Origin: an uncultured Candidatus Saccharibacteria bacterium
GTDB lineage: Bacteria; Patescibacteriota; Minisyncoccia; JACQLN01
DNA length: 64,000 bases
Direction: 5' to 3'
Assembly (NCBI GenBank): GCA_964526375.1
Contig: CAZGLK010000001.1
Location: forward strand, 4,811-68,810
The notes under the pieces: model-generated
Seen by the model: the letters and a program-made list of their open reading frames with translations, nothing else
Told to the model about the DNA's origin: nothing
Databases searched by the model: none
Part shown: positions 1-52,592 of the stretch, piece after piece
Layout: each line of letters starts with the position of its first letter
How positions within the stretch are numbered: position 1 is the first letter of the stretch
Made by a program: the position numbers and the translations under genes

Positions 1-2
1 GA

Positions 3-185: not shown

Positions 186-223
186 ATAAAATTTTTGCGT
201 TATCTGCGTTTGCCATTATTATT

Positions 224-269
224 TATTGTTTCCACCAACTAGACGATCGTCCAAGGCAAGGAAACAATA
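224..269. repeat. 46-nt stem-loop repeat, copy A
   Basis: Perfect 10-bp stem TATTGTTTCC/GGAAACAATA enclosing a 26-nt loop with the palindromic core AGACGATCGTC; two more copies in the window share the same architecture. Confidence 0.6.
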
Positions 270-323
270 GCCGCTGACGAGTTTTTGGTAGTTTAGTAAA
301 AGGACAATAGACTGTTTATCTTT

Positions 324-371
324 CTATTGTTTCCTTACCGTAAACGATCGTCTGATAGAGGGAAACAATAG
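324..371. repeat. 46-nt stem-loop repeat, copy B
   Basis: 11-bp stem CTATTGTTTCC/GGAAACAATAG with a 26-nt loop containing AACGATCGTCT. Confidence 0.6.
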
Positions 372-545
372 CACTTTTTAACTACTCTCAAAAACCCGCA
401 TAAAAGCTGGGTTTTTGTGGGGTTGACAGGCATTTAATAATTTGCTAGCATAAAAGAGTTCTTTTCGTATAAATCCACAAGAAAAGCCGCCCTCAGCTAC
501 TTTTCCGCTCTAAGACTATCTAACTTAAAATTCGAGAGGTTTAAG

Positions 546-995
546 ATGAGGCTCGATCAGGATATCAATTTTAATCTGGGAGGAGTGCCGATGGTGATGA
601 GACTTGATACCACGGCGCCAGAAAATGTGTGGATTATTACGCCGAAATGTCAAGAAGACATGGGAGACTCTTTCGCTAACGCCATTAAGAAATGCATCGG
701 CTTTCCTCATCAATTGTTCTCGTTTGGATTTGATGAGGCTGATGTCTACGTTGCTTTAGTGGCGGATGACCAGGCCGTTGTAATATATGGTGGAGATGAG
801 CCCGGTGCTTCTATGGCCTGTAACATTTTCGCCAGTTTGCCAGATTGGAGCGGCGAAAGTCTAAAGGGGCTCAGGGGAGCGGGAGAGTTTGTTGATTTTC
901 TCTCACTTCTTAAAGAGCATGCTGGAATCGAAGTATTTCGACGCAGCGATGGGGAGGTGATTGATTACACAAGCGCTCTTTTACTCTTACGATGA
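546..995 (+). CDS. hypothetical protein (149 aa)
   Basis: ORF with a GAGAGG Shine-Dalgarno 7-8 nt upstream of ATG; no family recognised. Confidence 0.5.
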   Translation: MRLDQDINFNLGGVPMVMRLDTTAPENVWIITPKCQEDMGDSFANAIKKCIGFPHQLFSFGFDEADVYVALVADDQAVVIYGGDEPGASMACNIFASLPDWSGESLKGLRGAGEFVDFLSLLKEHAGIEVFRRSDGEVIDYTSALLLLR

Positions 996-1109
996 GGAGC
1001 CCATTGAATTCTCTCAGATGTTTGATGATTTAGAGGATTCAAAGCTTTTTTGAATCCCATAAAGCCAAAACGGTCGTTAAAAAAATGAACAGCCTGACCA
1101 GCTGTTTTT

Positions 1110-1673
1110 TTATTCCTCGGTTGCTCGTCGAGTATACTCACTTGTTCTGGTATCTACTTCAATAAAATCGCCGGCTTCCACAAAAAGCGGAGTTTTAACC
1201 GTAATGCCGGTTTCTAAAAGAACATCTTTTAAGCCGCCTTGAACGGTGTCGCCTTTTAAGCCGGGCGGAGCATCTTTTACGCGCAGAACAACTTTTATGG
1301 GCAGCTCCAGGCTAATGGGCTGGCCGTTAAAAATAAGAACTTCACACGGCAAATCTTTTTTTAAGTAGCCGGTTTTTTCTTGCAGCAAATCTTGAGCCAA
1401 GCCAAATTTCTCTCCGCCGTCGGTTTGAAAGAAAAATTCGTCCCTGGTGCGATAAGCAAACTTGGCCTTGAGGCGCTCAATGTCGGCCTCGTCAACCTTA
1501 TCGGATTGCTGAAAAGTTTCGGCGCGAACTTTGCCGCTGATCAAGTGGCGGATTTTGGTTTGCATCACCGGCCGTCTTTGGGCCACCTTATTGTGATGAG
1601 CTTCCAGAACTTGATAAGGCTCGCCCTCCAGTTCAATCAAAACGCCGGGTTTTAGGTTGTTCATTGAAAGCAT
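1110..1673 (-). CDS. efp: translation elongation factor P
   Basis: Colinear with EF-P (…NGQPISLELP…PGLKGDT…GG…LETG…VKTPLFVEAGDFIEVDTRTSEY…). The start is taken at the internal Met (MLSMNNLKPG; MNN at 1664 also possible); the ORF-track start at 1724 lies in the repeat-rich upstream region. Confidence 0.85.
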   Translation of the reverse strand: MLSMNNLKPGVLIELEGEPYQVLEAHHNKVAQRRPVMQTKIRHLISGKVRAETFQQSDKVDEADIERLKAKFAYRTRDEFFFQTDGGEKFGLAQDLLQEKTGYLKKDLPCEVLIFNGQPISLELPIKVVLRVKDAPPGLKGDTVQGGLKDVLLETGITVKTPLFVEAGDFIEVDTRTSEYTRRATEE

Positions 1674-1689
1674 AATGCGATGCCAATCA

Positions 1690-1779
1690 ACGAATGACAT
1701 GCGAATTATGCGAATAGAATCCATTCAAATCAAATAAAAAATTCGTATCATTCGCACGAATTCGCATATTAGCATCGCG
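1690..1779. promoter_or_regulatory. divergent efp/comEC intergenic region carrying an inverted array of ATGCGAAT / ATTCGCAT units
   Basis: atgcgaattatgcgaata … attcgcacgaattcgcat arranged as an imperfect palindrome around ~1731; the same CGAAT unit family recurs upstream of other genes. Confidence 0.3.
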
Positions 1780-1798
1780 TTGAGTATACTAAATACTA

Positions 1799-2947
1799 AT
1801 GAGCTTATCAAGGGCGGCGGTTATCGGCGCGGTGGCGTTTATGGCGGGCGTGGCGGTTTATTCCGTGGCTGGTTTGCAGTGGTGGCTGGTGAGCGCGCTC
1901 GTGGGCGCGGTGGCGGTTTTGGGTGTGGTAGGCGCTCGGGTTAATGTAAAATATCTCGCGCCCATTTTTGTTGTTGTTTTGTCTTTGCTGGCTGGGCTGG
2001 TTTGGGGGGCCGTTTATCGGCCTCAACCGAAGCAGGAAAAAACTTTTTGGCAGGATGCGCGGGCGGCGTTAACGGCCAAGGCAGATAAAATTATGCCCCA
2101 ACCCGAGGCCGCGGTTTTTGACGGCATGGTTTTGGGCTACGATAAAAACATCCCCGCTTCTTTGAAAGACATTTACAACATTACCGGCACGCGGCATATT
2201 CTGGCCATATCGGGCATGAACATTTCCATTGTGTCCTTAATGCTGATGAGTTTTGGTTTGGCTCTCGGTTTGTGGCGGCGTCAGGCTTTTTGGCTGGCGC
2301 TCGCGGGCATAATCGCTTTTGTTCTTTTGGTAGGCAGTCCGCCTTCAGCTGTTAGGGCCGGCTTGATGGCCGGCATAGTTTTGTGGGCCAGAAACCACGG
2401 TCGGCTGTTCTTAGCTTGGCGGCCGCTGGTATTGGCCGCATTTTTTATGGTCTTGTTGAATCCGCGCCTCTTGATTTTTGACATTGGGTTTCAGCTTTCT
2501 TTTTTGGCGGTGGCCGGCATTTTATATTTTAAGAACTTTTGGGATCATGTTTTCGGCTGGCTGCCCGTAAAACTTGCCCGTGAGTTATTGTCGCTTTCGT
2601 TTGCGGCCCAAATTACCACTTGGCCCATTATTCTTTACAACTTCGGCACCTTTTCACTGGTCGGCCCCATAGCCAATATCTTTGTGGTGCCGCTTTTAAA
2701 CCCCATAATGCTTTTGGGTTTAGGATTTGCGATTTTTTCATGGTGGCCGATATTGTCCCAGGTGTTTTTGTGGCCAGCTTGGCTTATCTTGAAATTAGCC
2801 GACAAAGCCGTGGAATTTTTTGCTACCTTCCCTTGGGCCAGTTTGAACTTGGGCCAGCCGGGTTTGATCGTGCTCGCTTATTATCCTTTCCTGTTGTGGC
2901 TGTGGAAGTTTTTAGAAAGAAAGGGCTTGAACGAGGCGGTGCATTGA
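1799..2947 (+). CDS. comEC: ComEC/Rec2 competence-domain membrane protein (N-terminal half of a split ComEC)
   Basis: Polytopic membrane protein with the ComEC competence-domain signature (NITGTRHILAISGMNISIVSLML). Confidence 0.8.
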   Translation: MSLSRAAVIGAVAFMAGVAVYSVAGLQWWLVSALVGAVAVLGVVGARVNVKYLAPIFVVVLSLLAGLVWGAVYRPQPKQEKTFWQDARAALTAKADKIMPQPEAAVFDGMVLGYDKNIPASLKDIYNITGTRHILAISGMNISIVSLMLMSFGLALGLWRRQAFWLALAGIIAFVLLVGSPPSAVRAGLMAGIVLWARNHGRLFLAWRPLVLAAFFMVLLNPRLLIFDIGFQLSFLAVAGILYFKNFWDHVFGWLPVKLARELLSLSFAAQITTWPIILYNFGTFSLVGPIANIFVVPLLNPIMLLGLGFAIFSWWPILSQVFLWPAWLILKLADKAVEFFATFPWASLNLGQPGLIVLAYYPFLLWLWKFLERKGLNEAVH

Positions 2948-2974
2948 TATCGAGGTTGTGTATCCAGTTCATAA

Positions 2975-3085
2975 ACCGACCCGAACAATCCGAATTTTAC
3001 CCGAATGACCCGAACCAATTCGGATGAGATATTCGTTAAGTTCGGATTATTTCGCGTCATTCGGATGTATTCGTGGTTAGGGATC
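2975..3085. repeat. phased CCGAA(T)/ATTCGG heptamer array between the two ComEC halves
   Basis: cccgaacaatccgaattttacccgaatgacccgaaccaattcgg followed by the inverted ttcggatg…ttcgttaagttcggatt…cattcggatgtattcg; unit spacing is ~9-11 bp. Confidence 0.4.
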
Positions 3086-3092
3086 GCGTTTT

Positions 3093-3911
3093 ATGTGGTT
3101 GTCTAAAAAATTTGTCTTGGGGGTTTTGGCGTTTATTTTAATCTTGATTTCTTATGCCGTTTGGCAGAAGGGGAACCAGTCGCCGCGGCTGGTGTTTTTG
3201 AATGTGGGGCAGGGCGATGCCATGCTGGCCAGTTTGCCCGGCGACATTCAAATTTTGGTGGACGCCGGGCCGTCGGGCGAGTTGGCTTCTAAACTTTCCG
3301 GCTATTTGCCTTTTTACGATCGCGATATTGAACTGGCAATTTTAACCCATCCCCACGCCGATCACCTGCGGGGTTTTTTGGAGATATTCAAAAATTACAA
3401 TGTTAAAAATTTTATCTTTTCGGGTGCCAATTATTCCAGCCGGGTTTATGCCGATTTTATGGAGGCGTTAAGAAAAGAGGGCAGCGGTGTTTACTTGGCC
3501 GGAAAAGGTGATGTTGTCAGTTATCGGGGCAGACCGATATTGAGAATTTTTTCTCCCGATAAGGTTGAACTTGGGCGTGATTTCAAAAAAATTCACGAGG
3601 CCAACATTGTTAGCCAGCTGGAACTGGGCCATAGAAAATTTTTGCTGATGGGCGATGCCGAAGAAGATCTTGAATTGCGGCTCATCGCGTCAAAGACGAT
3701 TCAAGACGTGGACATTCTAAAAGTCGGCCACCACGGTTCTAAAACCTCCACCTCGGAAAAATTGCTCCAAGCCGCTCGTCCCGAAGAAGCCATCATCTCC
3801 GTCGGCCGCAACTCCTACGGCCACCCCAACCCCGGTGTCCTGGATCGCCTGCATCAAACCGGAGCCAAAGTTTTTAGGACGGATCAGGTGGGGGATGTGG
3901 TTTATAGGTAG
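3093..3911 (+). CDS. comEC: ComEC C-terminal metallo-beta-lactamase domain protein (second half of split ComEC)
   Basis: N-terminal TM helix then MBL motifs LTHPHADHLRG and KVGHHGSKTS. Confidence 0.8.
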   Translation: MWLSKKFVLGVLAFILILISYAVWQKGNQSPRLVFLNVGQGDAMLASLPGDIQILVDAGPSGELASKLSGYLPFYDRDIELAILTHPHADHLRGFLEIFKNYNVKNFIFSGANYSSRVYADFMEALRKEGSGVYLAGKGDVVSYRGRPILRIFSPDKVELGRDFKKIHEANIVSQLELGHRKFLLMGDAEEDLELRLIASKTIQDVDILKVGHHGSKTSTSEKLLQAARPEEAIISVGRNSYGHPNPGVLDRLHQTGAKVFRTDQVGDVVYR

Positions 3912-3947
3912 AAGTTAGAATCTAGAAGTTAGAAAATAGAATATCTT

Positions 3948-4012
3948 TTGGAGACCGAATCTCCAAAAATTGTAATCCCGGAGTTTCTGTTTTGGAGACT
4001 TAGTCTCCAAAA
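3948..4012. repeat. 65-bp direct repeat R1 (copy 1) with two internal hairpins
   Basis: ttggagaccgaatctccaaaaattgtaatcccggagtttctgttttggagacttagtctccaaaa; identical to 4789-4853; contains hairpins GGAGAccgaaTCTCC and GGAGACttaGTCTCC. Confidence 0.7.
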
Positions 4013-4016
4013 TTGG

Positions 4017-4048
4017 GCTCCCGGTGAAAAACATCGGGGGCTTTTTTT
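4017..4048 (+). terminator. rho-independent terminator T1 (copy 1)
   Basis: gctCCCGGTGaaaaaCATCGGGGgcttttttt: 7-bp stem (one G·U), 5-nt loop, U-run; duplicated at 5831-5860. Confidence 0.6.
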
Positions 4049-4077
4049 ATTTTTGAAATTAAGCTAGGATAACAGCA

Positions 4078-4416
4078 ATGAGGTTGGAGCATCAATCAGC
4101 TGAAGAATTAAAAAAGGAAATCTTGGGAATTACGGGTAAATATCTTGATTTAACCAAGTACCGGCTTTTCTTTTTTGGCTCGCGGGTGGCGGGTGATGGT
4201 GATGAGCATTCCGATGTGGATGTGGGTATTGATGGCATTGAGCCACTCCCGCCCGGGGCTATTTCGAGTATTCAGCAGGAACTGGACGATTTGAATACAC
4301 TCTATAAGATACAGGCTGTTGATTTCCAAAAAGTCTCGGAGGATTTTCGCAGGGTTGCCCTGAGCAAGGTAGAGATAATCAATCAACAAGATGAGCAAGC
4401 TAACAGCGGTGATTAA
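4078..4416 (+). CDS. minimal nucleotidyltransferase (MNT) antitoxin-type protein
   Basis: Pol-beta-like NTase motif GSRVAG…SDVDVGI; its 3' end overlaps the downstream HEPN gene. Confidence 0.75.
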   Translation: MRLEHQSAEELKKEILGITGKYLDLTKYRLFFFGSRVAGDGDEHSDVDVGIDGIEPLPPGAISSIQQELDDLNTLYKIQAVDFQKVSEDFRRVALSKVEIINQQDEQANSGD

Positions 4417-4768
4417 ACAATTTGAACAGGCTCTAAGCCGCTTGGACGAGGTTTTGAAAGAACCCAAGACCGATATAGTTAGAGATTCGGCTATAAAGAG
4501 ATTTGAGATTGTTTTTGATCTGTCTTGGAAGGCGGTCAAGGTTTTTTTGGAAGAGAAGAAGGGCATAGTTTGCCGCTCTCCGAAGGAATGTTTTCGTTCG
4601 GCTTATCAGGAGAAGCTGTTGGAGTACGACAATTTCTGGCTGGAGCTGACTGATAGTAGAAACGACATTGTGCATGTATACGGTGAATCGGAGGCGGAGA
4701 AAGTTTATGGAATTTTGCCCGAAGCCCTGCTTAGATTTAAGGAGTTGTTGGGTGCTCTCAAATCGTAG
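4391..4768 (+). CDS. HEPN-domain (nucleotidyltransferase substrate-binding, HI0074-like) toxin-type protein
   Basis: About 125 aa and helical; the overlap (4391-4416) with the MNT gene is typical of MNT-HEPN toxin-antitoxin pairs. Confidence 0.7.
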   Translation: MSKLTAVIKQFEQALSRLDEVLKEPKTDIVRDSAIKRFEIVFDLSWKAVKVFLEEKKGIVCRSPKECFRSAYQEKLLEYDNFWLELTDSRNDIVHVYGESEAEKVYGILPEALLRFKELLGALKS

Positions 4769-4788
4769 GCGGATATTCCGGTCTCGAT

Positions 4789-4853
4789 TTGGAGACCGAA
4801 TCTCCAAAAATTGTAATCCCGGAGTTTCTGTTTTGGAGACTTAGTCTCCAAAA
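4789..4853. repeat. 65-bp direct repeat R1 (copy 2)
   Basis: Identical to 3948-4012 up to …tctccaaaa, then diverges. Confidence 0.7.
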
Positions 4854-4859
4854 ATATCG

Positions 4860-5825
4860 TTGTTATCTCGGCGATGTATCTAAGTCTGCCTAAGCTTAGT
4901 TTGGGAATGGAATAGCAATTGCTTTGGGTTAGGTTAGGTTAGACCAACAAGGTCGGGTGTTTATAACTTGTCCTTGCGCATTTTTTCAATTGGGTATAAG
5001 GTTAAAATAATGTAATGTGATGAAAGTTCTTTAAATTTTGTAGGATGCGTCTGCACTGCGTCCGCCATCCGGAGTTTCCGTGCCACGGAGCTACCGGGTA
5101 ATCAACGGGGTCGATTTTGGTACATCCAATTAAGGAGGTTACCATGTTAGCGCCGCGGAATCGTGGCCGACCTCTTCTGAACAGCTCTAATTCTGTTTCC
5201 GTTCAGGAGAGTTAAGCGTCGACTGCCGGGCGGGCGGGAAACAGCGCCAATGCTAACTGGGAGAATGAGATAAACCGGGGTTCGGGGTGTCGGCTGAGGG
5301 GAGAGGTTATCAGCGACAGCCAGGGGATGAAATTGCCGGCGAGGCAGTTCTTCAAAAAATATCTGCTTCGATGATCAATGTTGTCCGGCGGGCGCGCGTC
5401 TGCCGTGTCAGTAACGGGGAGATGCGCGTTCGCCATTTAGTCTCGCTCCGGAACTTAATCAAATCGCCCGCGCCAAAATTGGCAGCGACGAATTTTGAAA
5501 AAGCTCTGGCTTCAACCGCAAGTTGAGGGCATAATAAGGAGGATCCAAATATGATTGCCCACAACAATCCCGTGCACACGGCCACGCGCGCTTCTCCCTC
5601 TCCGATCACAGGGAACGCAAGTGGTCACAGCGCCGTCGGTCAGAATCAGAACAGCTCCTCGGAAAACTAGTCGGAGATGCGTTAAGGCATATCTGATTGT
5701 GGGCCGACAGCTATCAAAAAAGGTATGCGGCGCTAGAGTCGCGTTTTGTCTCGGTGCACTAAGGAGCGACCGAGCTCCAAAATGCGGCGGCTGACGCAAA
5801 TGTAAGCCATCGAGATTCAACCTCG
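4860..5825. other. GC-rich orphan segment without a long ORF (possible structured RNA, small-peptide locus or decayed foreign DNA)
   Basis: GC visibly higher than flanks; only short overlapping ORFs in all six frames. Two mini-ORFs have perfect AAGGAGG Shine-Dalgarno sequences (ATG 5144, 23 aa; ATG 5551, 39 aa). The segment is bracketed by repeat R1' and terminator copy T1'. Confidence 0.3.
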
Positions 5826-5830
5826 ATAGA

Positions 5831-5860
5831 GCTCCCGGTGAAAAACATCGGGGGCTTTTT
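5831..5860 (+). terminator. rho-independent terminator T1 (copy 2)
   Basis: gctcccggtgaaaaacatcgggggcttttt, identical to 4017-4046. Confidence 0.6.
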
Positions 5861-6104
5861 ATTTGTTATTTGTAGCAATATTGCAGAGTCTTCGGATATT
5901 TCTGTTTCAGGCGATCGCTGGAAATAGAAATATCTGCTGATAGCCGATAGATGTCGATAGATGCTGATGGATTTGGGTTAGAAGTACCTCTTTTTTTATT
6001 CCGGCAGATACGTTAGACTGACAAAACGCAAATTGACGCGGATGATGACCCTGCTTCGCTAGTCAGCTGCGCAGGACACGGCGCGGATTCGCGCGGATAA
6101 TAAT

Positions 6105-7175
6105 ATGACAAAAGGGTTTCCTATTTTTAAAACAAGAATTAAGGGGGTGAATCAAGTTTTTAAACTGGAAGATCCGGTAGATCGCCAAAAGTATTTCCGG
6201 CTTAAGGCCGGGCGGGAAATAGCAAAAATACGCGGCTACCTAAAGAAAAACACTTTTGTTGGTTTTCTTTTGGGCAAGAAAAATTCGGGTAAGGGCACTT
6301 ACGCTAAGTTGTTTATGGAGGCAATTGGCTCAGCCCGCCTTGCTCACATTTCCATTGGCGACATCGTGCGCGGCGTTCACAAAGATTTGAATGATAGGAA
6401 AAGAAAGAAAGATCTGGTTGAGTTTTTAAGGCGCCGTTATCGCGGGCCGATTACCATTGAAAGCGCCTTGGAGATAATCTTGGGCCGGGACACCAAAGGC
6501 CTCTTGCCCACGGAAGTCATATTAGCTTTGGTGGAGCGCGAAATTGACAAGCTGGCCGGCAAAGCCGTTTTTATAGACGGTTTCCCGCGCGATCTGGACC
6601 AAATATCTTACTCGCTTTATTTTAGGGCCTTGATGGGTTACCGCGACGACCCCGATTTTTTTGTTTTTATAGATGTGCCTGAAAGCATCATAGACGAGCG
6701 CATGAAATATCGGGTGGTTTGCCCGTTGTGTCAGACCCCGCGCAATATGCGGGTCCATGCCACCAAAGAGGTGGATTATGATTCCGGCGCCAAAAAGTTT
6801 TACTTGCTGTGCGACAACCCCGGCTGCGGCAAAAAAAGAATGACGGCCAAAGAGGGCGATGAGTTGGGCATTGAGGCTATTCGCTCGCGCATAGAAATAG
6901 ACGATAAAGTTATGAAAACTCTGCTGAACTTTAACGGCATAGACAAAATATATTTGCGCAATTCTGTGCCGGTCAAAACGGCCAAGAGGTATGTGGATGA
7001 CTATGAAATTACGCCGGCTTATCGGTACGAGTGGGACAAAAATGTCAGTAAAGTTAGGATCGTAGAAGAGCCCTGGGTGGTTAAAGACGGCGCCGGAGAA
7101 AAATCTTACAGCTTACTGCCGCCGGCTGTAGTTGTGTCTTTGATTAGGCAAGTGGCCAAGGTTTTATCCTTGTAG
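6105..7175 (+). CDS. adenylate kinase family protein, divergent and extended (356 aa)
   Basis: P-loop GKKNSGKGT, ISIGDIVRG (cf. STGDMLRA), IDGFPRDLDQ (cf. LDGFPRTIPQ), a zinc LID CPLC…C..GC and RSRIE. The N-terminal ~50 aa and C-terminal ~120 aa extensions have no Adk counterpart. Confidence 0.65.
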   Translation: MTKGFPIFKTRIKGVNQVFKLEDPVDRQKYFRLKAGREIAKIRGYLKKNTFVGFLLGKKNSGKGTYAKLFMEAIGSARLAHISIGDIVRGVHKDLNDRKRKKDLVEFLRRRYRGPITIESALEIILGRDTKGLLPTEVILALVEREIDKLAGKAVFIDGFPRDLDQISYSLYFRALMGYRDDPDFFVFIDVPESIIDERMKYRVVCPLCQTPRNMRVHATKEVDYDSGAKKFYLLCDNPGCGKKRMTAKEGDELGIEAIRSRIEIDDKVMKTLLNFNGIDKIYLRNSVPVKTAKRYVDDYEITPAYRYEWDKNVSKVRIVEEPWVVKDGAGEKSYSLLPPAVVVSLIRQVAKVLSL

Positions 7176-7255
7176 ATGGTCAGCTTCCCACATATGTGGA
7201 TAAATGGTTGTTGACTTTTTGATCTATGGTGCTACACCGAAAGCAAGATAAAAAA

Positions 7256-7284
7256 CCCCAGACTTCAAATCTGGGGCTTTTTAT
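7256..7284 (+). terminator. rho-independent terminator
   Basis: CCCCAGActtcaaaTCTGGGGcttttta directly after the adk-like gene. Confidence 0.7.
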
Positions 7285-7339
7285 GCTGGCTACGAAATAC
7301 GACGTAAAGTCGCGTGGCGACCACGTCGCTTTACGCGAA

Positions 7340-7378
7340 TTGTTACGAATATACGAATATGAAATCAAGTGGTATAAT
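7340..7378 (+). promoter_or_regulatory. candidate nth promoter: tandem TACGAAT units plus an extended -10 (TGgTATAAT)
   Basis: ttacgaatatacgaatatgaaatcaagTGgTATAAT, with the -10 at 7373-7378, 20 nt upstream of the nth ATG; the 18-mer tacgaatatacgaatatg recurs at 12576-12593. Confidence 0.4.
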
Positions 7379-7397
7379 TTTAAAAGAGGGAATTTGT

Positions 7398-9708: not shown

Positions 9709-9754
9709 TATTGTTTCCTCTTCCCAGACGATCGTCTGTGGGATGGAAACAATA
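9709..9754. repeat. 46-nt stem-loop repeat, copy C
   Basis: 10-bp stem TATTGTTTCC/GGAAACAATA and a 26-nt loop with AGACGATCGTC; same architecture as copies A and B. Confidence 0.6.
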
Positions 9755-12787: not shown

Positions 12788-12816
12788 TTGACACAGCTTT
12801 TTGGGTTTGGTAAGAT
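12788..12816 (+). promoter_or_regulatory. sigma70-like promoter candidate for clpB
   Basis: TTGACA-17 nt-TAAGAT. Confidence 0.4.
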
Positions 12817-12818
12817 TA

Positions 12819-12845
12819 TTATCACTCTATAGAGCCAAGTGATAA
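12819..12845. promoter_or_regulatory. CIRCE-like inverted repeat (candidate HrcA operator) between promoter and clpB start
   Basis: TTATCACTC-N9-AAGTGATAA versus the CIRCE consensus TTAGCACTC-N9-GAGTGCTAA (3 mismatches, a perfect 9-bp IR). Confidence 0.4.
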
Positions 12846-12878: not shown

Positions 12879-15497
12879 ATGAATTTCGGAAATTTTACCA
12901 CCCGGGCCCAGGAGGCTTTTCAAAAGGCCCACTATATTGCCCAAGAAAAAAGCAGTGAGCAGGTCAACTGCCTGCATTTGCTTTTGGCGTTATTGCGCCA
13001 AGACGACGGTTTGGTAGCCACCATCTTAAAAAAGATGGAGGCCGATGTGGGCCGACTGGACGCGGCTTTGGAACTGGAAATCAACCGACTCCCCCGTTTG
13101 GTTGGCGGCGGCGGGGTGGCCCAGATTTTTTTGGGTCAGGATTTGGCTTTAGTGATTGAGCAGGCCCAAAAAGAAGCCATGGGTTTTAAGGACGAATATG
13201 TTTCCACCGAACACTTGCTTTTGGCGGTGCTGGCCGTGCCGTCGCGGGCGCGGCAAATTTTGGAAGAAATGGGAGTCGGCGCCGAGAATGTTCTTAAAGT
13301 GCTTAAAGATGTTCGTGGCAGTGGGCGGGTAACATCTTCTGAACCCGAGCAAACCTATCAGGCCCTGCAAAAATACGGACGCAACTTAACCGATTTAGCC
13401 CGACGCGAAAAGCTGGATCCGGTGATCGGCCGCGATTCCGAAATTCGCCGAGTGATGCAGGTTTTGTCGAGGCGCACCAAAAACAATCCGGTTTTGATAG
13501 GCGAAGCCGGTGTGGGCAAAACGGCCATTGTGGAGGGCTTGGCCCAGCGCATTGTGGCCGGCGATGTGCCCGAAGGTTTGCTTAACAAAGAGATCGTGGC
13601 TTTGGATATCGGCTCGCTGGTGGCTGGCACCAAGTTTAGGGGCGAGTTTGAGGAGCGGCTTAAAGCCATATTAAAAGAAATAGACCGCGCCGAAGGGCGG
13701 ATGGTTTTGTTTATAGACGAACTTCATACTCTGGTGGGCGCCGGCGGCGCTGAGGGCGCGGTGGACGCCTCCAATTTGCTTAAACCTCCCCTAGCCCGGG
13801 GCGAATTGCATGCCATTGGCGCTACCACTCTAAAGGAATATCAAAAATACATAGAAAAGGACCCGGCCTTTGAACGAAGATTCCAGCCGATTTTAGTAAG
13901 TGAGCCCTCGGAAAAAGATGCCGTGGCCATTTTGCGCGGCATTAAAGAAAAATACGAGGTTCACCACGGCGTTAGAATCACCGATGCCGCCATTGTGGCG
14001 GCGGTGGAGCTTTCCCAACGCTACATATCCGATCGCTTTTTGCCCGACAAGGCCGTGGACTTAATAGACGAAGCCACCTCGGCTTTGAGAATGGAAATAG
14101 ATTCCATGCCCGACGAGCTGGATGTGCTTTCGCGCGAAATCAGGCGGCTTGAAATTGAACGTGAGGCCCTAAAAAAAGAAAAAGAGGCCGCCGACAAATT
14201 AAAAAAGATCAAACACAATCTGGCCGACATAAAAGAAAAATATCAGGCCTTGGAAGCGCAATGGCAGGGCGAGAAAAGTTTGATTACCAAAATGCGCGAA
14301 ACCCAAAAAGAGGTTGAGCGTTTGCGCAGCGAGGCCGAGATTGCCGAGCGCGAGGGCCGCCTGGAGCGGGTGGCCGAAATCCGCTACGGCCTTATACCCT
14401 CTTTGGAAAAAACCATTGGCGAGTGTTCGGAGAAACTGGGCCATTTGGAAAAGTCGCATCGCCTGTTAAAAGAAGAAGTTGGCGCCGACGACATTGCCGA
14501 AGTAGTCAGCCGCTGGACGGGCATTCCCGTAAGCCGTCTGCTGGAAGAAGAATCCAAAAAACTGGCTCGCATGGAGCAGGAATTGTCGCAGAGAGTGGTG
14601 GGCCAGATGAAAGCGGTGCAGGCGGTTGCCAATGCCATCCGCCGCGCCCGCACCGGTTTGGGCGAGGAATCGCGGCCGATCGGTTCGTTTGTGTTTTTGG
14701 GCCCCAGCGGCGTGGGCAAAACGGAATTGGCGCGGGCTTTGGCCGAGTTTATGTTTAACGACGAGAACGCGCTTATTAGGGTGGATATGTCGGAATACAT
14801 GGAGCGGCATTCCGTAAGCCGTATGATCGGTTCTCCGCCCGGCTATGTGGGCCACGAGGAGGGTGGCCAACTGACCGAACTGGTGCGCCGCCGGCCCTAC
14901 AGCGTGGTGCTTTTTGACGAAATAGAAAAAGCTCACCCCGAAGTGTTTAATTTACTGCTTCAGGTTTTGGACGACGGCCACCTAACCGACGCCAAAGGCC
15001 GCCGCGTCAACTTTAAGAACGCCATTATTATTATGACCTCTAACCTCGGCACCGAGATTATCCACGAATACCACGGTTTGGGTTTTGCCCACGACGACGG
15101 CAAGCGCCAAGAGGCCCAAGCCCGTGAAGCCGAAGATAAAATAATGGAAATCCTGCGGCGGAACTTTAGGCCCGAATTTTTGAACCGCTTGGATGAAATT
15201 ATTGTTTTTAACCAGCTAAGAAAAAGCGATCTGGAAAAGATTGTGGAATTGCAATTGGAAAAAGTTAAAGAGCGCCTGGCCAAAAAGGGCATTAAACTGC
15301 GCGTCTCGCCCGAACTAAAGGCTTATTTGGTTAAGAAGGGTTTTGATCCGGTCTACGGCGCCCGGCCGCTCAAGCGGGCGATTCAGGATTTGGTTTTGAA
15401 TCCTTTGGCCCAGCGCCTTTTGCAAAAACAGCCCGCCCCTGTGGCAGAACAGATTTTTAAGGCCGACTTCAGCCGGGGGGAAGTTCTCATTAAATAG
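12879..15497 (+). CDS. clpB: ATP-dependent chaperone ClpB
   Basis: Clp N-domain, two AAA+ modules ([30 protein letters not shown]) and a long middle coiled-coil; 872 aa. Confidence 0.95.
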
Positions 15498-15628
15498 CTT
15501 CCTTAGCTTGTTAGAAAAAATTCTCTGACCTAAAAAGCCAATGAAGCTAATAAGCTAACGAAGCTTTAGAATAATCCACAGCTTGGCTGTTGGAGGTGGC
15601 GGTTTTTTGTGATATTGTAGGTGGAGAT

Positions 15629-15793
15629 GGTTACAAAACTCTCTCTGCTGCAATTTCATATTTTCGGCTGCGACTTCGTCAGACTGCGCAAAAAGGTTTT
15701 CACCGTAGTTTTACTACGGCTTCAAACCTTTTTGCTTGCCTTCCTCGTCTCGCCAGAAAATATGAAATTTCGCCACGAAAGAGTTTTGTAACC
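15629..15793. repeat. 165-bp imperfect palindrome (arms ~70 bp) in the long intergenic region after clpB
   Basis: Outer blocks GGTTACAAAACTCT / AGAGTTTTGTAACC are perfect. Inner blocks are aatttcatattttc / gaaaatatgaaatt and caaaaaggttt / aaacctttttg, with a central small IR ccgtagt…actacgg. Confidence 0.5.
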
Positions 15794-16515
15794 ATCTCGT
15801 AAATAGTTTTTGCCGGGTTTCTTTATGCTGGTGTTTATCCACAACCCTGCCCTTGCTCTAGGTTGGCTTGTGGTATAATTGCTGTAAAGAGTTTTGACCT
15901 GTGTATAAACCATGTCTCTTGTGATGGGTTGACGGGTCTTGTTGACTTGTGAAATGCGCTAGCATATCATTTGGTCTAAGGAAGATCTATCAGCTCGCGT
16001 ACGGAGTGTGAGTGTTAAACCAAGCGGTTCGCAGGCAATATATGATTGTTTCCCAAACAAAGATATTTTGAAGGCCTTTTGCAACGGCTCTTTTGTGATT
16101 TACGAAATACGAATTGGTACGCCTGCCTGCGGTAGGCAGGAATCTACGAAAATTAAAGATGTGGACAGATGAGTTTGCGCGAGGATTGATTTGAGATTAG
16201 GACTCGTGTATGCTCATATGTTCATGTCCGGTGTAGTTTTCCAGCAAGCTCGCACCTTGACAATTGAATATCCTGTAAGTCTCGAATCTTGAATCTTGGA
16301 TCTTGGATCGTGAATATTGGATCATGGGGTGCGATTCAAGAAGTGCGAATAGTGATTTTAGTGGAGTGTCTTAAGTCGGGTCGGTCTCTTTAGGAGGAAG
16401 ACTTGACCTCCGATTGAATGCGATTATTAAAATTAGCAACTAACTTTGCGGGTTGATAGCAACCAAGGGATCGCAAGATACCTGGGCTGCCTTCAGCCAA
16501 AAACGAGAAAAACAA

Positions 16516-19500
16516 ATGAGTTATCTAAATAGCAAAACCCGCGAGTTGGGCAAAAAGGTTATCTCCGTCGGTTTGGCGGTAACAACCTTTGCCTGGCTGG
16601 TGGGTGTTCCTTCTGCGGGCGCGCAAACAAGCGCCGATCAGATCGCGGCGTTGCTGGCGCAGATTCAAGCTCTGCAGGCGCAGTTGGTGGCTTTGCAGGC
16701 GCAAAGCGGCGGCAGTGCCGGTGCGGCGGCTTGTACTTTCACCCGAAGCTTAACAATGGGCTCGCGGGGTGATGATGTAAAGTGTCTGCAGGAATATCTA
16801 ACTGATACGGGTCACTTTACCTACTCCGGCGGCGCTACCGGATACTTTGGTTCCATAACCAAAGCGGCCGTGGCGGCTTGGCAGGCCGACAATGATATCA
16901 GCCCGGCGCGAGGTTACTTTGGCCCTATTTCAAGGGCAAAGTATAGTGAGATGGCAGTGGTGGCGCCAACTACTCCCACAACTCCGACAACGCCAACCAC
17001 GCCCGGGACAACTCCGACAACCCCGGCCGGCACCGGCTTGACGGTGGCTTTGGCTTCCGATACTGCCGCGGCTGGTTTGTTCGGCGAGAGCTTTGCTTCG
17101 CGGCCGTTTACCAAAATAAACTTTACGGCTTCGGCCGACGGCGACATTACGGTAAAATCGGTAACGGTGGAAAGAACCGGTCAGGCGGCTGATGCGGTCT
17201 TTAGTGGCCTTATTGTGCTGGATGAAACCGGCACCAGAATCGGAACTTCCAAAACACTAAATTCCAATCACCAAGCCGTTTTGAACGAACCCTTTGTGGT
17301 TAAAGCCGGAACAACGCGAGGCATGACTTTGGCGGGAGATTCCGATAACAACCAAGACGCTTATGCCGGCCAGATTGCCACCTTGAGCTTGATAGCGGTG
17401 GATGCCGGTACGGCCACGGTCAACGGCACTTTGCCAATAACCGGTAACGGCATGACCATTAACTCAACTTTGGCGGTGGGTACTTTGACTTTGACCACCG
17501 GCGCTAGAGAGCCCGGTTCCAGCCCCACCAAAGAGGTCGGTTTGACCAACTATACCTTTGCCTCTATTAAGTTGTCGGCTGGTTCAGCGGAAGATATGAC
17601 TGTTAAATCCATTCGCTGGAATCAGTCGGGTTCGGCGGCTACGGGCGACTTAGCTAATGCTAAAACATGTATTGACGGCGGCGATTGCTACGATCATGTT
17701 GTTTCCAGCGACGGCAAGTACTACACGGCCAAATTCGGTGATGCCGGTTTGAAGCTGACTAAGGGCGAATTCAAAGATATCTACATTAAGGGAGATATTG
17801 TCAGCGGTTCCGGCCGCGGCGTGGACTTTGATTTGTACCGCTATGCCGACATCAAAGTTACCGGCAATGTTTACGGCTACGACATTTTGCCCACGGCCAC
17901 CAACTCGGCTGACTCGGCCACGGACGATGATGGCACCTTCCAAGATGCTAACCCCAACTACGATGGGTATGAAGTTACGATTTCCAACGGCACCATCAAT
18001 GTAACCAAGTCCAACAAGGTGGCGGCCCAGAATGTGGCGGTCAATCTTTCCAACCAGATTTTGGGTGGGTTTGATGTGGAAGTAAAGGGCGAGGAAATTT
18101 CGGTGGCGGCCATGAATTTTGATGTGTCCACAATAGATGCGGCTGGCACGGGAGGCGCCATTGATTCCAACGACATTACCAGCATCACTTTGGTGGATGG
18201 CAATGGCAACACGGTGGCCGGTCCGGTGGATGGCGTGGCCGGCGGTAACAACGGTATTCAGTTTACCGACACGGTTACCTTCCCCATCGGCACCAACACT
18301 TACACCATTAAGGGTAAAATGGGCACCGATTTCTTGAGCAACGACACGGTGGCGGCTTCCACCACGCCCAGTTCCGACTGGACCACGGTCAGAGGCAAGA
18401 CCACGGGCAATTCCATTACGCCCAGCCCGACCAGTGCCGTTACCCTAAACACCATGACGGTTAAGGCGGCGGCGATGACGGTTACGGTTTCCCCCACGCC
18501 GACGGCTCAAAATATAGTGACTGGTTCCAAAGCATTCGTTTTTGCCAACTATGTTTTTGACGCTTCGGCTTCGGGCGAAGACATTAGATCAACCTTAATA
18601 AAGACCCGATTCACTGGCACCAGCAATACGGCTGATCAATTGCAGAGTTGCGGATTGTTTGACGGTACGAACGCGCTGACCACCGGCGGCAATACCAACA
18701 GCCCGGCTAACACCGTGGCAACCGGCGATGACCTTACTTTCAATTTGGACAGCGGTTTGATTACGCCCAAGGGCTCGGTTAAGACCATTAGCTTAAAGTG
18801 CGATGTTAAAGGCAATGTGGATGCTGAAGCCACGGCTGGCACAACCACCTTTAGTTTGGGCATAACCAACGCGGCCGGCAGCATAACCTCAACCGGCCAG
18901 ACATCGGGCCAATCGGTTACCGAGACCATTACCCAAGCCAACGGCCAGGCCATGACCCTGCAGAGCGGCGGATCGCTTACTCTAGCTTTGGATGCTTCCA
19001 GCCCGGCTTTGAAGTGGGTGCAAGCGGGGGCAACCGACCAAATCTTGGCGGTATTCCGGCTTAATGCCAACTATGAGGCCGTTAAGCTGGAACGGATGGG
19101 ACTGCAGCTTTCTACTTCCACCAATGCCGCGCCGAATGCTATGGCTTCTAACACGCCGGCCGATATTCAGAAGGTGACTCTGTGGAATGGCGCTAAGAAG
19201 ATAGGCGAGGTTCAGTTTAGTAGTTCTGATTTTGCTACTACCACCTTTTCTACTAGCTTTGGCGCTACCGATGAGGATCTGACGGTGCCTAAGGACGGCC
19301 AAATGCTGTTAACGGTTAAAGGTGACATCGGAAGCATCGGCACTGTGACTCAAGCTTTCCCCGGACACTTGGCAGTGGTTAACTATGATTCCGGTTCAGC
19401 GGATGATGAAGCCAACCGCGGGGTGAAAGGCACTGGAGCGTCTTCGGGTACGGCTTTGTATGCGGCAGGATCGGATACGGCATCCAACGGCGCCAGAATT

Positions 19501-20337
19501 AGCAAGGCAATTCCTACGGTGGAAAGAGTGGCGTTTACGAGCGCTAAGTTTGCCAACTTGAATGACCAGAACCTGTATCGCTTTAAGGTTTCCGCTCCGG
19601 CTGGGACAAACGGCATTAGCTTGTACAAGTTTACCTTTAATGTGGCTACTTCAGTCAGCGGTTACTTGCAGGAGCTGCCGGGTGATGGCGATATACCCCC
19701 GGAACTGTCCGGCTTTAGAGTGACCAACTTTAGGGTATACTGCTACGATGATGCCGCCTTTTCCAACGCGTCTTGTCCGAATGTCGGCGCTACCGGTGGG
19801 TTGTTGAACGGAAGCGGAGTTTCGGATGAATCCACGGTTATGTCCAGCTCTACCGCTGGCTTAACGGCTCCGGCTAATGATGTAGACATCAACATAACCT
19901 TTAATCCAACCAATCCTTCCAGCGCCACGACAGAGGGAGTTAAGATTGACGCGGGAACAAGCAAGTACTTTGTCTTGAAAGCCGATGTTACGGGTGCAAG
20001 CTCCACGCCTTCCATCTCTACCAAGATGCTGGGTGACGCTTCATTCGCTTCTATTGTGAATGCGGTGGGCAGCTTTAGCGATGCCGGTGCTATTCCCGAT
20101 GGCGTTGACACTGATTTGACCATGGCCGGGGATGATTGGACCAATGGTTTCTACATCTTTGCCACCACGGCGAGCGATGTGGATCTGTGGGATGACGATG
20201 ACTTCATCTGGTCCGGTAATTCTACCAACACCGCCGCGACGGATGTGAATGCCTATGACTGGTTTAACGGATTCTTGGTGCCGGGGCTGTCTAACACCGA
20301 TGTCTCTCAAACCGAGATTTTGACCTTGAGCCAGTAG
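16516..20337 (+). CDS. giant secreted surface protein (≥1273 aa)
   Basis: Signal peptide, coiled-coil QIAALLAQIQALQAQLVALQAQ, a PG_binding_1-like segment (GSRGDDVKCLQEYL…AAVAAWQ), a PTTPTTPTT linker, then ~1100 aa of low-complexity T/G/S/A/V-rich beta-type sequence. GC is higher than the backbone. The ORF-track start 16453 is probably upstream of the true start. Confidence 0.8.
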   Translation: MSYLNSKTRELGKKVISVGLAVTTFAWLVGVPSAGAQTSADQIAALLAQIQALQAQLVALQAQSGGSAGAAACTFTRSLTMGSRGDDVKCLQEYLTDTGHFTYSGGATGYFGSITKAAVAAWQADNDISPARGYFGPISRAKYSEMAVVAPTTPTTPTTPTTPGTTPTTPAGTGLTVALASDTAAAGLFGESFASRPFTKINFTASADGDITVKSVTVERTGQAADAVFSGLIVLDETGTRIGTSKTLNSNHQAVLNEPFVVKAGTTRGMTLAGDSDNNQDAYAGQIATLSLIAVDAGTATVNGTLPITGNGMTINSTLAVGTLTLTTGAREPGSSPTKEVGLTNYTFASIKLSAGSAEDMTVKSIRWNQSGSAATGDLANAKTCIDGGDCYDHVVSSDGKYYTAKFGDAGLKLTKGEFKDIYIKGDIVSGSGRGVDFDLYRYADIKVTGNVYGYDILPTATNSADSATDDDGTFQDANPNYDGYEVTISNGTINVTKSNKVAAQNVAVNLSNQILGGFDVEVKGEEISVAAMNFDVSTIDAAGTGGAIDSNDITSITLVDGNGNTVAGPVDGVAGGNNGIQFTDTVTFPIGTNTYTIKGKMGTDFLSNDTVAASTTPSSDWTTVRGKTTGNSITPSPTSAVTLNTMTVKAAAMTVTVSPTPTAQNIVTGSKAFVFANYVFDASASGEDIRSTLIKTRFTGTSNTADQLQSCGLFDGTNALTTGGNTNSPANTVATGDDLTFNLDSGLITPKGSVKTISLKCDVKGNVDAEATAGTTTFSLGITNAAGSITSTGQTSGQSVTETITQANGQAMTLQSGGSLTLALDASSPALKWVQAGATDQILAVFRLNANYEAVKLERMGLQLSTSTNAAPNAMASNTPADIQKVTLWNGAKKIGEVQFSSSDFATTTFSTSFGATDEDLTVPKDGQMLLTVKGDIGSIGTVTQAFPGHLAVVNYDSGSADDEANRGVKGTGASSGTALYAAGSDTASNGARISKAIPTVERVAFTSAKFANLNDQNLYRFKVSAPAGTNGISLYKFTFNVATSVSGYLQELPGDGDIPPELSGFRVTNFRVYCYDDAAFSNASCPNVGATGGLLNGSGVSDESTVMSSSTAGLTAPANDVDINITFNPTNPSSATTEGVKIDAGTSKYFVLKADVTGASSTPSISTKMLGDASFASIVNAVGSFSDAGAIPDGVDTDLTMAGDDWTNGFYIFATTASDVDLWDDDDFIWSGNSTNTAATDVNAYDWFNGFLVPGLSNTDVSQTEILTLSQ

Positions 20338-52588: not shown

Positions 52589-52592
52589 AACC

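What the first reader, a model, noticed from the sequence alone, without database searches (positions are those of the whole stretch)
15498..16515. 1-kb noncoding leader with a 165-bp palindrome upstream of the giant surface-protein gene
Seen in sequence: between clpB and the 1273-aa surface protein lies ~1 kb without credible ORFs. It contains a long imperfect palindrome (15629-15793, perfect 14-bp outer arms and a nested central IR). It also holds an extended -10 (TGgTATAAT, 15871-15879), a TTGACT-17-TATCAT promoter-like pair (15942-15970), a single perfect DnaA-box 9-mer (TTATCCACA, 15836-15844), a GCCTGCC…GGCAGG hairpin (16131-16150) and a GAATCTT/GGATCTT heptamer run (16285-16320). A long structured 5' UTR or an ncRNA controlling the surface protein is plausible.
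Basis: seen in the sequence. Interest (0 to 1): 0.5.

Follow-up and report, generated by a model that had tools for sequence, protein, structure and literature searches.

The report
Surface-protein gene promoters, structured leader, orphan palindrome
The 1-kb gap between clpB and the giant surface-protein gene of this groundwater Parcubacteria genome is a conserved control region with stacked promoters, a DnaA-box-like upstream motif and a roughly 550-630-nt folded leader, whereas the eye-catching 175-bp palindrome is an insertion found only in this genome.

Summary
The region 15498-16515 has no credible ORF, and it contains a real imperfect palindrome at 15624-15798 (fold z-score -10 on the + strand, -13 on the - strand).

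The palindrome is not the functional core. All 10 relatives that keep the clpB-spacer-surface-gene arrangement lack it. No second copy was found in any sequence I could search.

What is conserved:
- Two TTWTCCACA boxes, each about 30 nt upstream of an extended -10.
- A further sigma-70-type promoter.
- A leader RNA with hairpins. H3 (16451-16498) has 13 of 20 pairs with compensatory changes. H1 in relatives has 4 compensatory pairs and conserved U-G pairs. H2 (16363-16411) is conserved in sequence only.

The same box plus TATAAT lies upstream of this gene in 39 of 66 loci across the whole protein family (56 boxes where about 2 are expected). Long ORF-free upstream gaps are also typical of the family (median 402 nt).

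Best reading: tandem promoters with a transcription-factor site (possibly DnaA) and a long stabilising or regulatory 5' UTR, as in S-layer genes. No Rfam family matches. Transcription itself was not tested.

The parts
15489..15572 (+). AT-rich imperfect hairpin overlapping the clpB stop codon. It occupies the place where relatives carry a GC-rich clpB terminator hairpin.
   Evidence: Inverted repeat I1. Fold energy -31 kcal/mol, z-score -2.8. Relatives L004, L050 and L010 have strong GC hairpins at this position.
15572..15580 (+). Box A, TAATCCACA (consensus in relatives is TTTTCCACA).
   Evidence: The TCCACA core is conserved in all 10 full-length relatives at the same place.
15610..15618 (+). 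P0, an extended -10-like site TGaTATTGT, 32 nt downstream of box A. The palindrome begins 5 nt after it.
   Evidence: TGnTAnnnT aligns in all relatives. Its function is inferred.
15624..15798 (.). 175-bp imperfect palindrome, a lineage-specific insertion between P0 and the upstream region of P1.
   Evidence: Structure shown. Absent in L002, L004, L006, L008, L009, L010, L013, L014, L040 and L050. Box A to box B spacing is 263 nt here against 97-105 nt in 8 relatives. No other copy was found.
15835..15843 (+). Box B, TTATCCACA (identical to the DnaA-box consensus), about 30 nt upstream of the P1 -10.
   Evidence: Conserved in all relatives. The same box plus TATAAT occurs upstream of the surface-protein gene in 39 of 66 loci of the family. 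Spacing is 29-35 nt in 28 of 36 cases.
15871..15879 (+). P1, extended -10 TGGTATAAT.
   Evidence: TGnTATAAT is invariant in all 10 full-length relatives.
15942..15970 (+). P2', TTGACT-17-TATCAT.
   Evidence: Relatives carry TTGACA-18-TAAAAT (11 of 12 matches) about 50 nt further downstream in the alignment. That position is degenerate in the window.
16023..16098 (+). Sequence-conserved leader block (AAGCGGTTC ... ATGATTGTTTCCCAAACAAAGA ... GGCC..GGCTCTTTTGTGATTT).
   Evidence: Aligned with relatives. RNAalifold finds no consensus structure.
16122..16140 (+). 8-bp GC hairpin, found only in this genome.
   Evidence: It lies in a segment that is absent from relatives.
16158..16229 (+). 72-nt hairpin at the position of hairpin H1 of relatives. 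Its 3' arm (ATTAGGACTCGTG) is homologous, but the pairing partner differs.
   Evidence: z-score -4.7 for 16095-16260. H1 in relatives. Model R2 does not hit the window.
16257..16271 (+). Conserved 15-mer TTGACAATTGAATAT, role unknown.
   Evidence: Present in 9 loci at the same place. No -10 lies at promoter distance (read from the sequence).
16280..16323 (+). Degenerate heptamer tandem repeat (6.3 copies), found only in this genome.
   Evidence: The region is not conserved in relatives.
16363..16411 (+). H2, a hairpin GGAGT/AAGTC/..GGTCGGT..TCTC-loop-GAGG/GACTT/CTCC with a conserved asymmetric internal loop.
   Evidence: The core AAGTCsGGTCGrT is exact in 10 related loci. 91% of cells are paired, but covariation is not above shuffles. 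L008 and L009 have apical insertions, and L010 has lost the hairpin.
16451..16498 (+). H3, a covarying hairpin ending 17 nt before the start codon. It leaves the A-rich Shine-Dalgarno region free.
   Evidence: 13 of 20 pairs show compensatory changes. Covariation score is 0.494 against 0.316 for shuffles (0 of 500 reach it). Model R1 hits 16440-16518 at 69.5 bits, but the window was in the seed.
16503..16518 (+). Shine-Dalgarno-like GAGAAAAACAA followed by the ATG of the 1273-aa PG_binding_1 surface protein.
   Evidence: GAGAAAAACAAATGAG is conserved in nearly all relatives. Protein domains.

Best explanation
The spacer is the transcription-control region and long 5' leader of the major surface-protein (S-layer-like) gene.

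**DNA level.** It carries tandem promoters. P0 and P1 are each an extended -10 preceded about 30 nt upstream by a TTWTCCACA box (box centre near -50). A third sigma-70-type promoter (P2/P2') follows. The box is a binding site for a transcription factor. DnaA is the obvious candidate, because the box equals its consensus.

**RNA level.** Transcripts from P1 or P2' would carry a leader of about 630 or 540 nt. It folds into several hairpins: the 16158-16229 hairpin, H2 and H3. The last one ends just before an exposed Shine-Dalgarno region. By analogy with S-layer genes, these most likely stabilise the mRNA and/or bind a regulator.

**The palindrome.** The 175-bp palindrome is a recent, genome-specific insertion in the variable segment between P0 and the P1 upstream region. 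It is not part of the conserved machinery. At most it insulates P1 from read-through coming from clpB and P0.

**Shown:** conservation, covariation, the insertion status of the palindrome, and the family-wide box.

**Inferred:** promoter activity, the identity of the factor, and the stabilising role of the leader.
For: **Synteny.** The arrangement clpB, 757-937-nt ORF-free spacer, surface gene is kept in 10 relatives at 50-80% protein identity.

**Promoter elements.**
- Both boxes are conserved (TCCACA core invariant) and the P1 extended -10 is invariant in all of them.
- P2 scores 11 of 12 in L004 and L010.

**Hairpins.**
- H1: 95.8% of cells paired, 4 pairs with compensatory changes, covariation 0.277 against 0.179 for shuffles (0 of 500 reach it), slid controls at or below 0.09. 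Conserved U-G pairs would be A-C on the other strand.
- H3: 13 of 20 compensatory pairs, with 0 to 2 of 500 shuffles reaching the observed values.

**Read-through.** No + strand terminator-like site lies in 15300-16700.

**The box across the family.**
- 56 boxes fall on the + strand within 1 kb upstream of the gene, in 39 of 66 loci, where about 2 are expected. The remaining roughly 600 kb, both strands, holds 49.
- Box to -10 spacing peaks at 32-33 nt.
- The median ORF-free gap upstream of the gene is 402 nt.

**The palindrome.** It is absent in all relatives, and the box spacing is 263 nt here against about 100 nt in them.

**Known analogue.** Lactobacillus S-layer genes have two promoters and a long 5' UTR with a stabilising structure (PMC3666127).
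Against: - There are no transcript data, so promoter use and read-through are inferred.
- H2 shows no covariation beyond sequence conservation and is deleted in L010.
- H1 as modelled is not found in the window.
- blastn finds almost no similarity between the window's leader and relatives outside short blocks, so part of the window's leader has been remodelled.
- Only about 10 related sequences were available, some nearly identical (L006, L013, L014). The covariation statistics are therefore modest and the sequences are phylogenetically non-independent.
- The DnaA link rests only on identity to the consensus.
Confidence: 0.65

Rival explanations
1. The conserved part of the spacer encodes one or more independent noncoding RNAs, expressed from P1 or P2. 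The surface gene is driven by a separate promoter close to its start.
For: Covarying hairpins and conserved blocks show that an RNA is under selection. L010 has a + strand terminator-like hairpin between P1 and P2. The conserved block ending in GGCT-TTTTGTTGTTT resembles a weak terminator.
Against: No + strand terminator-like site lies after P2 in the window, L004, L009 or L010. The GGCC..GGCT block has no consensus structure. H3 directly abuts the conserved Shine-Dalgarno region. No conserved promoter-like pair lies in the last 250 nt (read from the sequence). No Rfam family matches.
Confidence: 0.15
2. The palindrome itself is the functional element. It could be a regulatory RNA hairpin, an antisense RNA, or a terminator or insulator that replaces the lost GC-rich clpB terminator.
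For: It folds extremely stably. The window lacks the GC-rich clpB terminator that L004, L006, L010 and L050 have. The hairpin is followed 8 nt later by TTTTT. It starts right at the predicted P0 start site.
Against: It is absent from all 10 relatives. The terminator scan does not call it. Wobble pairs show no strand bias, 2 on each strand. A single occurrence allows no test of selection.
Confidence: 0.1
3. The palindrome is a MITE-like or other selfish or accidental hairpin insertion with no role. The rest of the spacer is as in the best explanation. This rival concerns only the origin of the palindrome.
For: It has 19-bp perfect terminal inverted repeats with more diverged interior blocks. 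It is small and noncoding. It sits in the one segment of the spacer that also carries an unrelated 130-nt insertion in L004.
Against: No target-site duplication is visible (read from the sequence). No second copy was found in the 64-kb window, 91 related loci, phage or plasmid collections or viral contigs. No ORF relative exists among 5.8 billion proteins.
Confidence: 0.5
4. The spacer is decayed coding DNA: remnants of the membrane-protein and HTH_DeoR-like genes that lie between clpB and the surface gene in more distant relatives.
For: L007, L011, L033, L048 and others have clpB, a roughly 240-aa membrane ORF, a roughly 210-aa HTH_DeoR-like ORF, about 310 nt, and then the surface gene.
Against: tblastn of those proteins against 11 spacers gives nothing better than E = 0.17. 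Conservation is in short blocks with promoter-like and hairpin character and with frame switches.
Confidence: 0.04
5. The DnaA boxes mark a replication origin or a DnaA-titration cluster rather than a promoter element.
For: Two consensus or near-consensus boxes in direct orientation about 100 nt apart are conserved in all clade members.
Against: There are only two boxes. GC skew stays positive across the whole contig, with no switch. Each box sits at a fixed distance from a -10 element and upstream of the same gene across the family.
Confidence: 0.02

Closest known systems
Lactobacillus S-layer genes (slpA of L. acidophilus, L. brevis, L. crispatus): two promoters plus a long 5' UTR
   Same: The gene encodes an abundant surface protein. 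More than one promoter lies upstream. The long 5' untranslated leader forms a stable secondary structure, and the ribosome-binding site is left outside it. In Lactobacillus this leader accounts for a long mRNA half-life (PMC3666127).
   Different: The leader here is several times longer (about 540-630 nt). It is unrelated in sequence. It contains at least three separate conserved hairpins. The promoters carry a TTWTCCACA upstream box. Nothing here has been tested experimentally.
Brevibacillus brevis cwp operon and Thermus thermophilus slpA leaders
   Same: Both are S-layer genes. One has several tandem promoters, and the other has a 5' UTR that binds regulators.
   Different: There is no sequence or structure similarity. 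The organisms are from a different phylum. No autoregulation has been shown here.
DnaA-regulated promoters (dnaA autoregulation, nrdAB, B. subtilis sda; from established knowledge)
   Same: A 9-mer identical to the DnaA-box consensus TTATCCACA sits at a fixed position relative to the promoter. Some family members have a second box just downstream of the -10 (L054, L056, L068, L077).
   Different: The target is a cell-surface protein gene. Binding by DnaA is untested, and the factor could be a different protein.
ERIC, Correia or MITE-type intergenic palindromes
   Same: It is a 100-200-bp imperfect palindrome with well-conserved termini. It is noncoding, intergenic, and probably co-transcribed.
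   Different: It is a single copy in all sequence available. It has no target-site duplication and no relative anywhere I searched.
Rfam families (release 15)
   Same: None.
   Different: No match reaches threshold in the window or in five relatives' loci. The best hits in the leader are noise, such as mir-1175 at 20 bits against a gathering score of 51.

Membership tests
Sigma-70-type promoter | -35 and -10 hexamers at 16-18 nt, or an extended -10 (TGnTATAAT) | tested here: met
   P1 TGGTATAAT is at 15871-15879 and is invariant in 10 relatives. P2 scores 11 of 12 in relatives.
Sigma-70-type promoter | Transcription starts there | not testable with these tools
   No transcript data were available.
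Structured 5' UTR / cis-regulatory leader RNA | Base pairs maintained by compensatory changes on the mRNA strand | tested here: met
   H3 has 13 of 20 pairs compensatory. H1 has 4 pairs plus conserved U-G pairs. H2 is inconclusive.
Structured 5' UTR / cis-regulatory leader RNA | Continuous with the downstream coding region (no terminator in between) | tested here: inconclusive
   No terminator-like site lies on the + strand, but only a simple consensus scan was possible.
Known RNA family (Rfam) | Covariance-model score at or above the gathering threshold | tested here: not met
DnaA box / DnaA-regulated promoter | 9-mer TTWTNCACA | tested here: met
   TTATCCACA is at 15835-15843. 29 of 36 non-redundant boxes in the family have TATCCACA preceded by T.
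DnaA box / DnaA-regulated promoter | Bound by DnaA, with the same motif used at oriC of the same organism | not testable with these tools
   No dnaA or oriC is present in the sequence held.
Replication origin | Cluster of several DnaA boxes, an AT-rich unwinding element and a GC-skew switch | tested here: not met
   There are two boxes only, and the skew is positive throughout.
MITE (for the palindrome) | Terminal inverted repeats, small size, noncoding | tested here: met
   19-bp perfect termini, 175 bp long.
MITE (for the palindrome) | Target-site duplication | tested here: not met
   The flanks ...GTAGGTG and GTAAATAG... share no direct repeat adjacent to the termini.
MITE (for the palindrome) | Multiple copies in the genome or in relatives | tested here: inconclusive
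   None was found in the 64-kb window, 91 loci, phages, plasmids or viral contigs. The rest of the MAG could not be searched.
Intrinsic terminator (for the palindrome) | GC-rich stem immediately followed by a U tract | tested here: not met
   The scan does not call it. The T run starts 8 nt after the stem.

The most novel reading that the evidence does not exclude
Across Parcubacteria, the gene for the major cell-surface protein is driven by a promoter with an AGTTATCCACA box at about -50 that is bound by the replication initiator DnaA. In these minimal cells with few regulators, envelope production would then be tied directly to the replication cycle. The clade-specific leader of about 500-600 nt, with hairpins H1 to H3, would be a new cis-regulatory RNA that adds post-transcriptional control.
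Probability: 0.3. Interest if true: 0.6.

Novelty: new variant of a known kind. Interest (0 to 1): 0.42.

Why it matters
Nothing is known experimentally about gene regulation in Parcubacteria (the candidate phyla radiation). This locus offers a concrete promoter architecture and a structured leader for what is probably their most abundant envelope protein, conserved enough to test. The box is a ready handle for binding assays with DnaA or for pull-downs. The promoter and leader could serve as strong expression signals once genetics becomes possible in these organisms. If DnaA is the factor, it would link the cell surface to the replication cycle in ultra-small bacteria. The palindrome by itself matters little.

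Tried and rejected
- **Rfam.** Searches at permissive thresholds on the window and on five relatives found nothing in the spacer.
- **Pseudogene remnant.** I tested for remains of the membrane and HTH_DeoR genes of distant relatives. There was no similarity.
- **Conserved small ORF.** Similarity appears in all six frames with frame switches, which is typical of noncoding DNA. A 5-codon ORF (MNLPR*) in the conserved block is not kept in L006 or in the window (read).
- **Terminator or attenuator at GGCC..GGCT-TTTTGTTGTTT.** RNAalifold finds no consensus structure.
- **Strand of the palindrome from wobble pairs.** The count is 2 against 2, so it is uninformative. The -97 versus -79 kcal/mol difference comes from alternative pairings.
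- **Other copies of the palindrome.**
  - The window and the related loci have none.
  - The phage and plasmid collections have none.
  - Five viral contigs carry the 17-mer, but only as a single arm, at about the number expected by chance (my estimate).
  - The translated ORF has no relative in the protein database.
- **Box plus -10 as a general promoter type of this genome.** It occurs only at this locus in the 64-kb window. The clpB promoter is an ordinary TTGACA-17-TAAGAT.
- **TTTGAGCCAT as a family-wide partner of the box.** It is present in only 8 of 36 cases.
- **Covariance models of H3 and H1.** Searched over about 535 kb of related loci, they hit only clade members, so the leader RNA is clade-specific.
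- **oriC.** Rejected on GC skew.
- **dnaA in the held sequence.** None was found.

Full report
**Source and context.** The clpB protein of the window is encoded on contig JACQLP010000020.1 of MAG GCA_016204085.1. Contig position equals window position minus 7389, and the window joins several contigs. Upstream lies clpB (12879-15497; AAA_2, ClpB_D2-small and other domains). Downstream lies a 1273-aa protein (16516-20337) with a signal peptide, a coiled coil, a PG_binding_1 domain and about 1100 residues without Pfam hits. A TPR protein and glycosyltransferases follow. The protein has more than 1000 homologues of about 1150-1300 aa in Parcubacteria/Patescibacteria MAGs. None is characterised, and no solved structure is related. 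Parcubacteria are reported to have an apparent S-layer (bioRxiv 10.1101/2022.04.20.488981). That this family is the S-layer protein is my inference.

**The observation.** The spacer 15498-16515 has no called gene, and its short ORFs have no Pfam domain.

The palindrome is real.
- Its arms are 15624-15645/15777-15798 (22 nt, 95% complementary), 15652-15674/15747-15769, and 15688-15699/15724-15735.
- The outer 19 bp are perfect, and 69 of 91 aligned arm positions agree.
- It folds at -79.4 kcal/mol on the + strand and -97.5 on the - strand. Z-scores are -10.3 and -13.4.
- Because the arms are imperfect and it sits inside a 42-kb contig, an assembly artefact is unlikely (inference).

TTATCCACA is at 15835-15843, and the GC hairpin is at 16122-16140. 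The heptamer run is a period-7 array with 6.3 copies at 16280-16323. Taken alone, the -10, the promoter pair and the box are at or near chance frequency.

**Relatives.** Protein-based retrieval gave 8 genome loci, 80 metagenome loci and 3 loci from exact-protein look-ups.
- Ten loci at 50-80% protein identity keep clpB, then a 757-937-nt ORF-free spacer, then the surface gene. These are L002, L004, L006 (nearly identical to L013 and L014), L008, L009, L010, L040 and L050. L003 is truncated.
- More distant relatives have a membrane ORF and an HTH_DeoR-like ORF between clpB and the surface gene, followed by about 310 nt.
- Those proteins leave no detectable trace in the spacers.

**The palindrome is an insertion.** In every alignment the palindrome falls in a gap.
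- Two conserved TCCACA boxes flank it. Their spacing is 97-105 nt in eight relatives, 230 nt in L004 (which has an unrelated insert at the same spot) and 263 nt in the window.
- No other copy exists in the window, in 91 loci or in the phage and plasmid collections.
- Five viral contigs contain the terminal 17-mer, but as a single arm only. That is about the number I estimate would arise by chance.
- The ORF through the palindrome has no relative among 5.8 billion proteins.
- There is no target-site duplication, and wobble pairs do not favour a strand.

**What is conserved (coordinates).**
1. After clpB there is a terminator hairpin. It is GC-rich in L004, L006, L010 and L050, AT-rich in the window and absent in L002.
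2. Box A (TTTTCCACA; TAATCCACA in the window, 15572-15580) is followed 29-33 nt later by TGnTAnnnT (P0; window 15610-18).
3. Box B (TTWTCCACA; window 15835-43) is followed by an invariant TGnTATAAT (P1; window 15871-79). The gap from box to TG is 27-31 nt in all but L006 (38 nt).
4. A sigma-70-type promoter TTGACA-17/18-TAnAAT (P2) scores 11 of 12 in L004 and L010. It is degenerate in the window, which instead has TTGACT-17-TATCAT about 50 nt upstream.
5. A sequence-conserved block has no consensus structure.
6. Hairpin H1 has 21 pairs.
   - 95.8% of cells are paired, and four pairs show compensatory changes.
   - The covariation score is 0.277 against 0.179 for shuffles (0 of 500 reach it) and 0.09 or less when the partners are slid.
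   - Several U-G pairs are conserved, which would be A-C on the other strand.
   - The window has a different 72-nt hairpin at this place (16158-16229), and the H1 model does not hit it.
7. The 15-mer TTGACAATTGAATAT lies at 16257-71 in the window.
8. Hairpin H2 (window 16363-16411) has a conserved internal loop GGTCGGT.
   - Its pairing potential is kept (91% of cells).
   - It shows no covariation beyond conservation.
   - It is expanded apically in L008 and L009 and lost in L010.
9. Hairpin H3 (window 16451-16498) has 20 pairs.
   - 13 pairs show compensatory changes.
   - The covariation score is 0.494 against 0.316 for shuffles (0 of 500 reach it).
   - It ends 17 nt before the ATG and leaves GAGAAAAACAA free.

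Similarity between spacers appears in all six reading frames with frame shifts. That is what noncoding conservation looks like.

**A family-wide promoter element.** T[TA]TCCACA occurs on the gene's strand within 1 kb upstream of the surface-protein gene in 39 of 66 loci that have enough upstream sequence.
- That is 56 boxes where about 2 are expected. The remaining roughly 600 kb, on both strands, holds 49, close to chance.
- Of the plus-strand boxes, 37 have a TAnAAT 24-42 nt downstream, against 1 on the opposite strand.
- In a non-redundant set the gap is 29-35 nt in 28 of 36 cases, with a second mode at 42 nt. The extended consensus is A-G-T-TATCCACA.
- The flanking sequences of these loci are otherwise unalignable, and the proteins are only 30-60% identical.
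- Loci with the HTH_DeoR-like gene directly upstream lack the box.
- Some loci have a second box just after the -10.
- In the 64-kb window the box plus extended -10 arrangement occurs only at this locus, plus one chance hit inside a gene.
- Long ORF-free gaps upstream of the gene are typical of the family. The median is 402 nt, and 26 of 63 are 500 nt or more.

**Interpretation.** The spacer is a promoter region plus a long structured leader. The box, centred near -50, is most simply a transcription-factor site. Its identity with the DnaA-box consensus makes DnaA the first candidate. I could not test this, because no dnaA or oriC is in the sequence held and I found no literature on it. It is not an origin, since GC skew stays positive across the contig.

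The leader hairpins covary on the + strand, and no terminator-like site separates them from the gene. A 5' UTR of about 540 nt (from P2') to 630 nt (from P1) is therefore the best reading. The closest known parallel is the S-layer genes of lactobacilli, which have two promoters and a long 5' UTR whose structure stabilises the mRNA (PMC3666127). The leader matches no Rfam family. Covariance models of H1 and H3 find it only in this clade.

**The palindrome's role.** It begins 5 nt after the P0 -10 hexamer, so a P0 transcript would start inside it. It ends just before the conserved T-rich sequence upstream of box B. It may block clpB or P0 read-through in a genome that has lost the GC-rich clpB terminator, or it may be a neutral MITE-like insertion. 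The evidence does not decide between these. Its absence from all relatives shows that the conserved control region does not need it.

**Limits.**
- No expression data were available.
- The alignments hold only about 10 related sequences, which are not independent.
- The window's own leader is remodelled relative to the others.
- The rest of the MAG could not be searched for palindrome copies.

Noticed in passing
window 224-269, 324-370, 9709-9754: There are three copies of a 46-bp palindromic element, TATTGTTTCC-N8-GACGATCGTC-N8-GGAAACAATA, in intergenic DNA. None is expected by chance. It could be an operator or a REP-like repeat.
   Followed up: partly
window 12788-12845: The clpB promoter is TTGACA-17-TAAGAT (12788-12816). 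It is followed by an inverted repeat, TTATCACTC-N9-AAGTGATAA (12819-12845), with the 9-N9-9 geometry of the HrcA operator CIRCE (TTAGCACTC-N9-GAGTGCTAA). This may be a heat-shock operator variant.
   Followed up: no
L018, L022, L026, L029-L031, L034, L037, L042-L045, L047, L054-L056, L062, L065, L068, L069, L071, L077, L078, L088-L090 (upstream of the surface gene): An AGTTATCCACA box lies 29-35 nt upstream of a TATAAT in front of the surface-protein gene, across distantly related Parcubacteria. Several loci have a second box about 57 nt downstream, just after the -10.
   Followed up: partly
L052, L055, L067, L072, L075 (AAGTCGAAAA); L031, L037, L042, L043 (AGGTCAAAA); L007 5879-5886; L011 3609-3616 and 3649-3655: A recurrent (A/G)GTCGA(A/T) or AAGTCGAAAA motif lies 15-100 nt upstream of the start codon of the surface gene in distant relatives. 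It resembles the AAGTCsGGTCGrT core of hairpin H2. It may be a shared protein-binding or translation signal.
   Followed up: no
L007 4211-5664; L011 854-1570 and 2714-3379: In more distant relatives, a roughly 240-aa multi-pass membrane ORF and a roughly 210-220-aa HTH_DeoR-like ORF lie between clpB and the surface gene. These loci lack the TTATCCACA box, which suggests an alternative regulatory arrangement.
   Followed up: partly
L009 5822-5870: The apical insertion in hairpin H2 consists of three direct copies of ACGCGGAT.
   Followed up: no
L002 8560-8771: A hairpin-rich stretch lies just downstream of the surface gene. It gives several weak, sub-threshold Rfam hits and is probably its terminator region.
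   Followed up: no
window 1-7389 and 49337-64000: The window is a concatenation of contigs. Contig JACQLP010000020.1 (41,947 bp) occupies 7390-49336, so features spanning those junctions are not real.
   Followed up: partly
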